Shown here: one piece after another, positions 4,243 through 4,325 of the stretch
Position numbering within the stretch: position 1 is the first letter of the stretch
Layout of the letters: each line of letters opens with the position of its first letter
IMG/VR virus record: IMGVR_UViG_2706796742_000001
Span: 23,511-87,510 of that record
Reading direction: 5' to 3' (one strand)
Length of the DNA stretch: 64,000 nt
Source of the DNA: a virus
Lineage: Duplodnaviria > Heunggongvirae > Uroviricota > Caudoviricetes
Notes under the pieces: model-generated
The model's input: the letters and a program-made list of their open reading frames with translations, nothing else
Database searches by the model: none
What the model was told of the DNA's origin: nothing
Position numbers and translations under genes: made by a program

Positions 4243-4325
4243 ACAGAAGACCGTTTACAGCAAAACTTAAACAATCTATTTCTCGGTAAAGAAAAGGCGA
4301 AGGTTCGATTCCCTCCACTTCTACC
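4243..4325 (+). ncRNA. tRNA-like chimeric element: CAGAAGACC 5' motif joined to a T-arm and CCA 3' end
   Basis: starts CAGAAGACCGTTTACAGCAAA like the repeat family, ends GAAGG-TTCGATT-CCCTC then CACTTCT-A-CCA; AGAAG/CTTCT can pair as a 5-bp acceptor-like stem; no canonical anticodon arm found. Confidence 0.35.

What the first reader, a model, noticed from the sequence alone, without database searches (positions are those of the whole stretch)
4243..4325. Chimeric tRNA-like element: repeat-family 5' end fused to a T-arm and CCA terminus
Starts with CAGAAGACCGTTTACAGCAAA like the other elements but ends with GAAGG-TTCGATT-CCCTC followed by CACTTCT-A-CCA. AGAAG can pair with CTTCT as a short acceptor-like stem, yet no canonical D or anticodon arm is present. 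It could be a tRNA-mimic (decoy, Y-RNA-like module, RNase P/CCA-enzyme substrate) or a decayed tRNA.
Basis: seen in the sequence. Interest (0 to 1): 0.55.

Follow-up and report, generated by a model that had tools for sequence, protein, structure and literature searches.

The report
Broken Y-like RNA fused to tRNA
This is the scar of a one-off deletion of about 273 bases in a Felix O1-type phage that joined the front of a tRNA-shaped, Y-RNA-like gene to the tail of a lysine tRNA gene; the scar is probably dead, but it exposes an unannotated family of small RNAs that sit beside a Ro60-like phage protein.

Summary
The sequence is as described. The window comes from a Felixounavirus, and the element lies in its tRNA operon.

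**What the element is.**
- In about 250 related phages the same spot is 272-275 bp longer.
- Bases 4243-4312 are identical to the 5' part of an intact 141-nt element, called E4 here.
- Bases 4310-4334 are identical to the 3' end of tRNA-Lys(UUU) and its trailer.
- The crossover is the shared TCC at 4310-4312, inside two similar T arms.
- No other public phage or metagenome sequence carries this junction.
- The chimera folds no better than shuffled sequence.

**What the parent is.**
- Intact E4 has a bulged terminal helix, a CAGCAA box, a V hairpin, a T arm, a closed 7-bp acceptor-like hairpin and a D arm. This is the layout of bacterial YrlA Y RNAs.
- A Ro60-fold protein (DUF2828+DUF7788, 98% identical to Bas63 gp130) is encoded 332 nt upstream of the first of these elements (E1).
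- Covariance models find the family in 35 of 80 sequences searched (the window plus loci holding homologues of that protein). All hits lie on the gene strand, and covariation is strong.
- Rfam has no matching family.

**Verdict.** This copy is a deletion remnant of a new variant of tRNA-mimicking Y RNA. The deletion also removed tRNA-Lys(UUU).

The parts
1789..3204 (+). Gene for a 471-aa Ro60-like protein (DUF2828 + vWA-like DUF7788), ortholog of Bas63 gp130; the presumed protein partner of the E RNAs
   Evidence: Pfam DUF2828 3.6e-28 and DUF7788 5.8e-43. AF2 model pLDDT 87, pTM 0.87. The top 12 Foldseek PDB hits are all Ro60/TROVE over 510-559 alignment columns, E 1e-8 to 1e-5, TM 0.44-0.65. 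98% identical to Bas63 gp130 over 410 aa.
3314..3343 (+). Sigma-70-like promoter (TTGACA-18-TAAAGT with TG) ahead of the first tRNA; the next one is at 4500-4528
   Evidence: No + strand terminator-like site lies between 3343 and 4500, so E1-E4 are probably co-transcribed with tRNAs Pro to Ile (inference).
3536..3618 (+). E1: short family member (bulged closing helix and CAGCAA box, no tRNA-like module)
   Evidence: R2 44.4 bits, E 5.9e-6. The MFE fold gives the 4-bp outer helix, the bulge and the inner helix (7 of its 8 pairs form).
3703..3773 (+). E2: short family member
   Evidence: R2 39.4 bits; fold. The outer helix is UUGC/GCAA here and UUAC/GUAA in pinkbiff, a compensatory change.
4153..4237 (+). 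E3: short family member
   Evidence: R2 40.6 bits; fold.
4241..4312 (+). E4 remnant: 5' strand of the outer helix (4241-4244), AGA bulge (4245-4247), 5' strand of the inner helix (4248-4255), UA + CAGCAA box (4256-4263), V hairpin (4279-4294), 5' strand of the T stem and the T loop (4299-4310)
   Evidence: Identical to E4 of BPSELC-1 (L002) and L007 from 4243 to 4312. R2 scores 54.9 bits here against 134.3 for intact E4.
4310..4312 (+). Crossover microhomology TCC, inside the roughly 20-nt similar stretch AGGCGAAGG-TTCGATTCC (E4) / AGGCGATGGGTTCGAATCC (tRNA-Lys)
   Evidence: The last base identical to E4 is 4312 and the first base identical to tRNA-Lys is 4310. The deletion is 272-275 bp relative to six relatives.
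4313..4326 (+). 3' end of tRNA-Lys(UUU): rest of the T-stem 3' strand, acceptor 3' strand CACUUCU (4316-4322), discriminator A (4323), CCA (4324-4326)
   Evidence: Identical to the end of tRNA-Lys(ttt) of relatives (L001 1432-1507).
4331..4407 (+). Intact downstream tRNA-Met; RNase P cleavage at its 5' end would set the 3' trailer of the chimera (inference)
   Evidence: ARAGORN; Rfam 55.9 bits.

Best explanation
The element is a deletion scar. In the ancestor, as in essentially all sequenced Felixounaviruses, this stretch held three things in order. First, E4, a 141-nt RNA gene with a bulged terminal helix, a UUA-CAGCAA box, a V hairpin, a T arm, a closed 7-bp acceptor-like hairpin and a D arm. 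Second, a structured spacer of about 147 nt. Third, tRNA-Lys(UUU). Recombination between the two similar, co-oriented T-arm sequences (crossover in TCC, 4310-4312) removed about 273 bp. The lost material is the acceptor-like hairpin, the D arm, both 3' strands of E4's closing helices, the spacer, and the first 59 nt (about three quarters) of tRNA-Lys. What remains is half of E4 ending in the tRNA-Lys acceptor 3' strand plus ACCA. It is probably still transcribed within the tRNA operon and trimmed to the CCA. It cannot form the family's closing helix or its tRNA-like elbow, so it is most likely non-functional.

The parental E family (E1-E3 are intact in the window) is best read as Y-RNA-like partner RNAs of the Ro60-like protein encoded at 1789-3204. 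On this reading the conserved bulged helix and CAGCAA box are the protein-binding module. The variable interior is the effector module, and in E4 it is a tRNA mimic as in YrlA.

Shown: the two parentages, the junction, the uniqueness of the junction, the RNA structure and covariation, the Ro60 fold, and the gene-RNA linkage. Inferred: transcription and processing, protein binding, and loss of function.
For: Parentage and junction.

Uniqueness: every listed full-coverage hit spans about 273 bp more than the query, in 2 pieces (3 where there is a further insertion) (248-253 records matched in all). The junction 28-mer is absent from IMG/VR and from JGI metagenomes, while the intact junction occurs in 18 IMG/VR contigs.

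Loss of structure: the chimera has z = +0.13. Intact E4 folds into exactly the annotated helices with z = -2.2. R2 scores 54.9 bits on the chimera against 134.3 on intact E4.

Structure of the family: 95% of cells are paired against 37-45% in the slid controls, 25 of 28 pairs change on both sides, and the covariation score is 0.594 against at most 0.089. In a held-out set of 23 sequences from 19 loci, 89% are paired against 38-47%, 24 of 28 pairs change on both sides, and the score is 0.345 against at most 0.093. The acceptor-like stem is ACUCGGC/GUCGAGU in pinkbiff and ACCCUUC/GAAGGGU in Mordin.

Linkage to the protein: all 61 R2 hits are on the gene strand, they fall in 35 of 80 sources, 40 lie within 500 nt of the gene, and none overlaps it.

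Protein: Ro60 fold. The Bas63 ortholog gp130 is reported to be Ro60-like and to counter the Ppl defence system (PMC11482910).

Layout: it equals the YrlA order V-T-AS-D (PMC4201824).
Against: There are no expression data for this phage or for any E RNA. Binding of E RNAs to the DUF2828 protein is untested. The YrlA/Y RNA 5' motif GNCGAAN0-1G is absent, and no Rfam Y RNA model matches. Ro60 mainly contacts the 5' strand of Y RNAs (PMC4201824), so a remnant that keeps the 5' strand and the CAGCAA box could retain some binding. A single genome cannot separate a real deletion in the phage from a laboratory or library artefact. The covariation alignments were fitted to the model, which inflates pairing somewhat, although the slid-partner controls are far lower.
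Confidence: 0.8

Rival explanations
1. The chimera is itself a functional RNA. On this reading it is a half-molecule tRNA mimic (5' protein-binding strand, T arm, acceptor strand, CCA) that acts as a decoy or as a substrate for the CCA-adding enzyme, RNase P or an anticodon-nuclease-type defence.
For: It keeps the invariant CAGCAA box, the V hairpin, a 4-of-5-bp T arm and a genuine ACCA end. [quoted passage not shown] Ro60 contacts mainly the 5' strand of Y RNAs (same paper).
Against: It is found in one genome only, so there is no sign of selection. It folds no better than shuffles. It lacks the D arm needed for the tRNA elbow and both 3' strands of the closing helices, which covary across the family. 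Both halves are simply identical to their parent genes.
Confidence: 0.06
2. The junction is an artefact (assembly collapse, PCR or library chimera by template switching between the two T-arm sequences), and the real phage has the intact locus.
For: The junction lies in a short region of similarity and is seen in a single sequence.
Against: The longest exact identities shared by the two T-arm regions are only 6-7 nt (AGGCGA, GGTTCGA). That is far below assembler k-mers. The flanks are otherwise colinear with relatives. Deletions in phage tRNA regions are well tolerated; viable T5 tRNA-region deletion mutants are described in PMC11464382.
Confidence: 0.1
3. It is a tRNA pseudogene that decayed in place by point mutations, as in the reader's 'decayed tRNA'.
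For: It has a T arm, an acceptor 3' strand and CCA, and it lies in a tRNA cluster.
Against: The 5' 70 nt are 100% identical to a non-tRNA element that is intact in relatives. The 3' 17 nt are 100% identical to tRNA-Lys. About 273 bp are missing between them. This is one deletion, not mutational decay.
Confidence: 0.02
4. The parental E repeats are not protein-partner RNAs. They would instead be processing or spacer hairpins of the tRNA operon, or MITE-like mobile repeats with terminal inverted repeats.
For: They lie between tRNAs in one probable transcript. They have inverted-repeat ends. Four occur within 800 nt.
Against: The same module lies next to DUF2828 genes in distant phages, several of which have no tRNAs called in the 8-kb locus held. 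It is always on the gene strand (61 of 61). The helices are kept by compensatory changes rather than by sequence. Meanwhile unpaired positions are nearly invariant: C19, G21 and C22 in 61 of 61, U17 in 60 of 61, and the bulged G in 57 of 61. That pattern is typical of a protein-binding site. The interiors carry elaborate conserved modules such as the tRNA-like T-AS-D.
Confidence: 0.12

Closest known systems
YrlA, the tRNA-mimicking bacterial Y RNA (Salmonella, Mycobacterium and others; Chen et al. 2014, PMC4201824; structure preprint 10.1101/312249)
   Same: The 5' and 3' ends pair in a terminal helix. The interior has the order V stem-loop, T arm, closed acceptor-like stem-loop, D arm. It is encoded beside a Ro60-family gene together with shorter sibling RNAs (YrlB-like). 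The 7-bp acceptor-like stem matches M. smegmatis YrlA, which is cleaved by RNase P and receives CCA.
   Different: The partner protein is DUF2828+DUF7788. It has no Pfam TROVE hit and is only 11-16% identical to solved Ro60s. The GNCGAAN0-1G motif is absent and a bulged helix plus UUA-CAGCAA box takes its place. The genes are embedded in a phage tRNA operon. No Rfam Y RNA model matches. The window copy is truncated.
Thermus phage phiLo Ro60 with phage-encoded Yrl1/Yrl2 (PMC12135203)
   Same: A phage encodes both a Ro60-fold protein and its own Y-like RNAs. phiLo Ro60 is among the two best structural matches to the window protein (9l5y).
   Different: phiLo Ro60 is a recognisable TROVE protein. 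I did not compare its RNAs in sequence with the E family. Binding was shown there and has not been shown here.
Metazoan Y RNAs bound by Ro60
   Same: Modular design: a conserved bulged terminal helix as the protein-binding site and a variable effector loop.
   Different: The sequence motif differs (GGUCCGA against AG-helix/UUA-CAGCAA). There is no tRNA-like module and no pol III context.
Circularly permuted tRNA genes (Cyanidioschyzon merolae, some archaea; from my own knowledge)
   Same: The gene order T arm, acceptor strands, D arm, with the termini paired in a bulged helix.
   Different: E4 has no anticodon arm, no discriminator or CCA between the acceptor strands, and no BHB motif with two 3-nt bulges. 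Its hosts have no splicing endonuclease. I considered this reading and rejected it.
Viable deletions in phage tRNA gene regions (T5Mos, T5-123; PMC11464382)
   Same: A deletion in a phage tRNA region that removes tRNA-Lys. Such phages are viable but become sensitive to a tRNA-Lys-cleaving defence (PARIS).
   Different: Here the deletion is small and lies between two T-arm sequences. It also destroys a non-tRNA gene, and its phenotype is untested.

Membership tests
Canonical tRNA (Rfam RF00005 / ARAGORN) | Cloverleaf with acceptor, D, anticodon and T arms that scores above threshold | tested here: not met
   ARAGORN makes no call between 4094 and 4331. Rfam has no hit there at the gathering threshold. 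Only the T arm and the acceptor 3' strand are present.
tRNA-Lys(UUU) remnant | Sequence identity to the tRNA-Lys(UUU) gene of close relatives | tested here: met
   4310-4326, plus the trailer to 4334, is identical to the 3' end of tRNA-Lys(ttt) in L001, L002, L006, L007, L008 and L010. Only 17 of 76 nt survive.
YrlA / bacterial Y RNA | Encoded next to a Ro60 (TROVE + vWA) gene | tested here: inconclusive
   The adjacent protein has a Ro60 fold: the top 12 PDB hits are all Ro60. However, it matches Pfam DUF2828/DUF7788 and not TROVE. The best sequence-profile E to Ro60 is only 0.37.
YrlA / bacterial Y RNA | tRNA-like domain in the order V, T arm, closed acceptor-like stem, D arm, enclosed by pairing of the 5' and 3' ends | tested here: not met
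   The parental E4 of relatives and distant homologs meet it. The window copy does not. It lacks the acceptor-like stem, the D arm and the 3' strands.
YrlA / bacterial Y RNA | Conserved 5' motif GNCGAAN0-1G (the proposed Ro60 contact) | tested here: not met
   The family consensus is UUA(N)-ANA-AG-N5-U-UW-CAGCAA. Felix-type members read ...CAGAAGACC.... There is no GNCGAA.
YrlA / bacterial Y RNA | Match to a curated Rfam Y RNA covariance model | tested here: not met
   cmscan at E up to 10 over intact E1-E4 of pinkbiff gave no Y RNA family. Gathering-threshold scans of the window and of 16 diverse loci gave only tRNA.
YrlA / bacterial Y RNA | Physical association with the Ro60 protein; tRNA-type modifications | not testable with these tools
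   This needs RIP or EMSA and modification mapping.
CAGCAA-box RNAs linked to DUF2828 genes (family defined here) | Bulged terminal helix (outer 4 bp, 5' ANA bulge opposite a 3' G, inner 8 bp starting A-U then G-C), then U-W-CAGCAA; on the strand of, and near, a DUF2828 gene | tested here: inconclusive
   E1-E3 of the window meet it in full. The flagged element has only the 5' half, and its 3' half is deleted. It still hits model R2, but at 54.9 bits against 134.3 for intact E4.
Permuted tRNA gene | 3' half before 5' half, anticodon arm restored on joining the termini, BHB motif at the termini | tested here: not met
   No anticodon loop or arm exists in E4. The termini form a 4 + 8 bp helix with one asymmetric bulge.

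The most novel reading that the evidence does not exclude
The repeat family to which this element belongs (E1-E4 here) would be a previously undescribed, widespread class of phage Y-RNA-like RNAs. They would load onto the DUF2828 Ro60-like protein through a bulged helix and CAGCAA box and present interchangeable effector modules. The modules seen so far are tRNA mimics with a closed acceptor arm, tRNA bodies with the acceptor stem replaced, and other conserved modules up to about 240 nt. The resulting RNP would be the active agent behind the anti-defence activity reported for Bas63 gp130 against Ppl. The window's phage would then be a natural knockout of both the tRNA-mimic RNA and tRNA-Lys(UUU).
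Probability: 0.55. Interest if true: 0.8.

Novelty: new variant of a known kind. Interest (0 to 1): 0.6.

Why it matters
The scar itself matters little beyond telling us that this phage has lost tRNA-Lys(UUU). That is the tRNA species targeted by PARIS and, from my own knowledge, by PrrC-type anticodon nucleases. The phage has also lost its only tRNA-mimic E RNA. That makes it a ready-made natural mutant.

What the scar reveals matters more. Felixounaviruses are common therapy and typing phages. They carry four unannotated structured RNAs beside a Ro60-fold protein that a knockout screen links to defence evasion. The same RNA module accompanies homologs of that protein in many unrelated phages. 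If the RNAs are the protein's partners, Ro60-Y RNA biology extends into a large group of phage proteins still labelled DUF2828. It would also give testable RNA components for an anti-defence mechanism. Finally, it would correct database annotations that now place small 'hypothetical protein' genes on the opposite strand of these RNAs.

Tried and rejected
- **tRNA detection.** ARAGORN and Rfam at the gathering threshold found nothing at the locus.
- **Rfam in E-value mode.** Over intact E1-E4 of pinkbiff there were only weak chance hits, such as Dicty_Class_I_RNA at 17-20 bits against a gathering score of 41.5.
- **Sequence search of the upstream protein against PDB.** phmmer found nothing. A profile gave E 0.37 to the Ro60 vWA region. 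That was not enough, so I used structure prediction and Foldseek.
- **MAFFT alignment of 16 diverse tRNA-like members (A3).** It misaligned the acceptor-like stems. I replaced it with covariance-model alignments.
- **Permuted-tRNA reading of E4.** Rejected, because there is no anticodon arm and no CCA.
- **MITE or inverted-repeat reading.** Rejected on covariation, strand bias and gene linkage.
The MFE fold does not use it, and the overall fold is not better than shuffles.
- **Search for the chimeric junction elsewhere.** There were none among the listed matches in INPHARED, none in IMG/VR and none in JGI metagenomes.
- **Supplementary phage list of Chen et al. 2014.** It is not held, so I could not check directly whether any DUF2828 phage was in their set. 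Their search started from proteins annotated as TROVE, which would exclude these phages.
- **Literature searches.** Searches for DUF2828, for Felixounavirus with Ro60 or Y RNA, and for YrlA with phage found only the speculation in the PhageMaP preprint.

Full report
**Setting.** The window is from a Felix O1-type myovirus. Bases 3300-8300 match 312 phage records, and 227 of them match over at least 80% of the query at 80-99% identity. Most are Escherichia, Salmonella and Shigella Felixounavirus. The flagged element lies in the first block of a 25-gene tRNA cluster, between tRNA-Asp (4017-4094) and tRNA-Met (4331-4407).

**Observation.** It starts with CAGAAGACCGTTTACAGCAAA at 4244. It has GAAGG-TTCGATT-CCCTC at 4299-4315, then CACTTCT-A-CCA ending at 4326. 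CAGAAGACC occurs exactly four times in the cluster, at 3539, 3706, 4156 and 4244. The first three copies are closed 60-75 nt downstream by GGTCTGG. Neither ARAGORN nor Rfam calls a tRNA here.

**What happened at this spot.**
- A 316-nt query around the element matches 253 phage records. Every listed full-coverage hit is split into two pieces spanning about 585-593 bp (three pieces and a wider span where relatives carry a further insertion). A 110-nt query across the element gives the same result, with a span of about 383 bp.
- In phage pinkbiff (locus L001) the spot holds three features in order. The first is a complete 141-nt element (E4, 1149-1289). The second is a 147-nt spacer. The third is a canonical tRNA-Lys(UUU) at 1432-1507.
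- The window is identical to E4 of BPSELC-1 and L007 from 4243 through 4312. It is identical to the tRNA-Lys 3' end and its trailer from 4310 through 4334.
- The two parents overlap only in TCC (4310-4312). That triplet lies inside a similar stretch of about 20 nt: AGGCGAAGG-TTCGATTCC in E4 and AGGCGATGGGTTCGAATCC in tRNA-Lys.
- The missing stretch is 272-275 bp, depending on the relative.
- The A-C mismatch in the T stem arises because its two strands have different origins.
- The chimeric junction 28-mer is absent from IMG/VR and from JGI metagenome contigs. The intact E4 junction is present in 18 IMG/VR contigs.
- The element is therefore a single, apparently unique deletion. It arose between two co-oriented T-arm sequences. 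It is not an evolved chimera, and it is not a tRNA that decayed in place.

**What the parent element is.**
- Intact E4 folds, without constraints, into six parts (z = -2.2): a 4-bp outer helix, an asymmetric bulge (5' AGA against 3' G), an 8-bp inner helix, a V hairpin, a T arm (GAAGG-UUCGAUU-CCUUC), a closed 7-bp hairpin (ACUCGGC-AGAG-GUCGAGU), and a D arm (GUGU-AAUGGUA-GCAC).
- This is the V-T-AS-D order that defines the tRNA-like domain of bacterial YrlA Y RNAs. In those RNAs the acceptor stem is capped by a loop, and the molecule's ends lie where the anticodon stem would be (PMC4201824).
- In Citrobacter phage Mordin the capped stem is ACCCUUC/GAAGGGU, which is fully compensatory.

**The adjacent protein.**
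- The ORF at 1789-3204 ends 332 nt before E1. It matches Pfam DUF2828 and DUF7788.
- Sequence searches against PDB are not significant.
- An AlphaFold2 model (pLDDT 87, pTM 0.87) has Ro60/TROVE proteins as its 12 best Foldseek PDB matches. These cover 510-559 alignment columns, with E from 1e-8 to 1e-5. They are Thermus phage phiLo Ro60, Xenopus and human Ro60, and Deinococcus Rsr.
- The protein is 98% identical to Bas63 gp130.
- The PhageMaP preprint calls gp130 Ro60-like and identifies it as a counter of the Ppl defence system. Its authors only speculate that some of the neighbouring 'tRNA genes' might be Y RNAs (PMC11482910).

**The family beyond Felix O1.**
- The protein has thousands of homologs. 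I fetched 80 viral loci encoding homologs; five are near-identical (97-99%) and the other 75 are 39-47% identical.
- Simple scans showed orphan T arms and a recurring CAGCAA box next to the gene.
- A covariance model built only from four Felix-type E4 copies (R1) already found significant hits in distant loci.
- On the 19 best hits, 95% of cells are standard pairs, against 37-45% when partners are slid. 25 of 28 pairs show changes on both sides. The covariation score is 0.594 against at most 0.089.
- A second model (R2) gave 61 hits at E up to 0.01 in 35 of 80 sources. All 61 are on the strand of the DUF2828 gene and none overlaps it. 40 lie within 500 nt of it.
- In the 64-kb window R2 hits only E1 (3536-3618), E2 (3703-3773), E3 (4153-4237) and the remnant.
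- A held-out set was not used for either model. It has 23 sequences from 19 loci. It shows 89% pairing against 38-47%, 24 of 28 pairs with double changes, and a score of 0.345 against at most 0.093.
- These alignments are fitted to the model, so the absolute values lean toward the structure. The margin over the controls is nonetheless large.
- The conserved core is the terminal module: outer helix, ANA bulge, inner helix beginning A-U then G-C (G in 59 of 61), then U (60 of 61), W, and C-A-G-C-A-A (C, G and C in 61 of 61). On the 3' side it reads ...C-U, an unpaired G (57 of 61), then NUAA.
- Paired positions vary with compensation while unpaired positions are invariant. That is the usual signature of a protein-binding site (inference).
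- Interiors vary. They include short hairpins (E1-E3), T-AS-D tRNA mimics (E4), and other conserved modules.
- Rfam has no matching family.

**How it most likely works.**
- Promoter-like sites precede the cluster (3223-3251 and 3314-3343). The next one is at 4500-4528, and no + strand terminator-like site lies between them. E1-E4 are therefore probably transcribed with tRNAs Pro to Ile and released when the neighbouring tRNAs are processed (inference).
- By analogy with Ro60-Y RNA particles, the terminal module would bind the Ro60-like protein. The interior would engage a second factor. For E4 that factor would be something that recognises the tRNA elbow and acceptor arm (inference).
- E4's acceptor-like stem is 7 bp. 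That is the length that makes M. smegmatis YrlA a substrate for RNase P and CCA addition.
- The window's remnant keeps the 5' strands, the CAGCAA box, the V hairpin and a hybrid T arm. It ends in the tRNA-Lys acceptor strand plus ACCA.
- It lacks the 3' strands of both closing helices, the capped stem and the D arm. It folds no better than shuffled sequence and scores 54.9 bits against 134.3 on R2.
- I therefore judge it non-functional. Residual protein binding through the 5' strand cannot be excluded.

**Consequences for this phage.**
- Within the window it has no tRNA-Lys(UUU). Only Lys(CUU) remains, at 5562-5637.
- It has no intact tRNA-mimic E RNA.
- Host tRNA-Lys is the target of PARIS, and a phage tRNA-Lys rescues T5 from that defence (PMC11464382). 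The deletion may therefore cost this phage on some hosts (inference).

**Comparison and novelty.**
- E4 works like YrlA and is laid out like it. It fails three YrlA membership features: no TROVE-annotated partner at the sequence level, no GNCGAAN0-1G motif, and no Rfam match.
- It is best called a new variant of the Y RNA kind, with a divergent Ro60-fold partner.
- Phage-encoded Ro60 with Y-like RNAs is already known for Thermus phage phiLo (PMC12135203).
- I found no paper that identifies these RNAs.
- The flagged copy itself is an ordinary deletion product.

Noticed in passing
L001 1284-1430 (pinkbiff; the homologous stretch is deleted in the window between 4312 and 4313): The spacer between E4 and tRNA-Lys in relatives is itself a very stable structure. 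It has a 24-bp closing stem (AAUUAUCUUUGUAGAUAAG.../...CUUAUCUACAAAGAUAAUU) enclosing three or four hairpins, with MFE -47.9 kcal/mol and z = -5.7. There was no Rfam hit. It may be another unannotated RNA, and this phage has lost it.
   Followed up: partly
L001 1149-1379 (pinkbiff_41) and L086 2249-2523 (bas63_0137, bas63_0138): GenBank records annotate small minus-strand 'hypothetical protein' CDSs over E4 and over the structured spacer. Given the plus-strand RNA structures, these are probably mis-annotations.
   Followed up: no
L084 6013-6124: One family member encloses a tRNA body in normal order: D arm, anticodon arm with UCU, and T arm. Rfam tRNA scores 55 bits at 6038-6108. Its acceptor stem is replaced by the family's closing helix and CAGCAA box. 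This is a second way of building a tRNA mimic on the same module.
   Followed up: partly
L013 4971-5220, L016 4973-5229, L019, L020, L023, L025, L027 and L051; also L012, L014, L017, L018 and L029: The same closing module brackets other conserved interiors in distant phages. One is an RNA of about 230-260 nt, directly after a short member downstream of the DUF2828 gene. Another is a module containing GAACCUUUCUGGAGGGGAAAGCAAAAACUCGCC. These were not modelled.
   Followed up: no
window 4796-4820; L001 1410-1431; L003 near 3340: A recurring A/T-rich leader (CUUUAAAGAUUAAU / CUACAAAGAUAAUUUAAU) sits immediately 5' of several tRNAs (Arg-UCU, Lys-UUU, Leu). It may be a processing or promoter-proximal signal.
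   Followed up: no
window 5890-5950: GAAAGACCGCTGG and CTGAAGACCGTAAC resemble the E-family 5' motif, but neither model R1 nor R2 hits here. It may be a degenerate relic or chance.
   Followed up: no
window 6343-6900 and 7289-8086: Two protein genes of unknown function (DUF7338, 185 aa; DUF7217, 265 aa) are embedded inside the tRNA cluster on the tRNA strand.
   Followed up: no
window 3370-8260: The 25 tRNAs cover all amino acids except Trp. There are two Met(CAU) genes, at 3623 and 4331.
   Followed up: no
L001 1432-1507 (tRNA-Lys(UUU) of relatives): By eye, the T stem of this phage tRNA-Lys has only three Watson-Crick pairs (AUGGG / CCCUC). The hybrid T stem of the chimera pairs better, at 4 of 5.
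   Followed up: no
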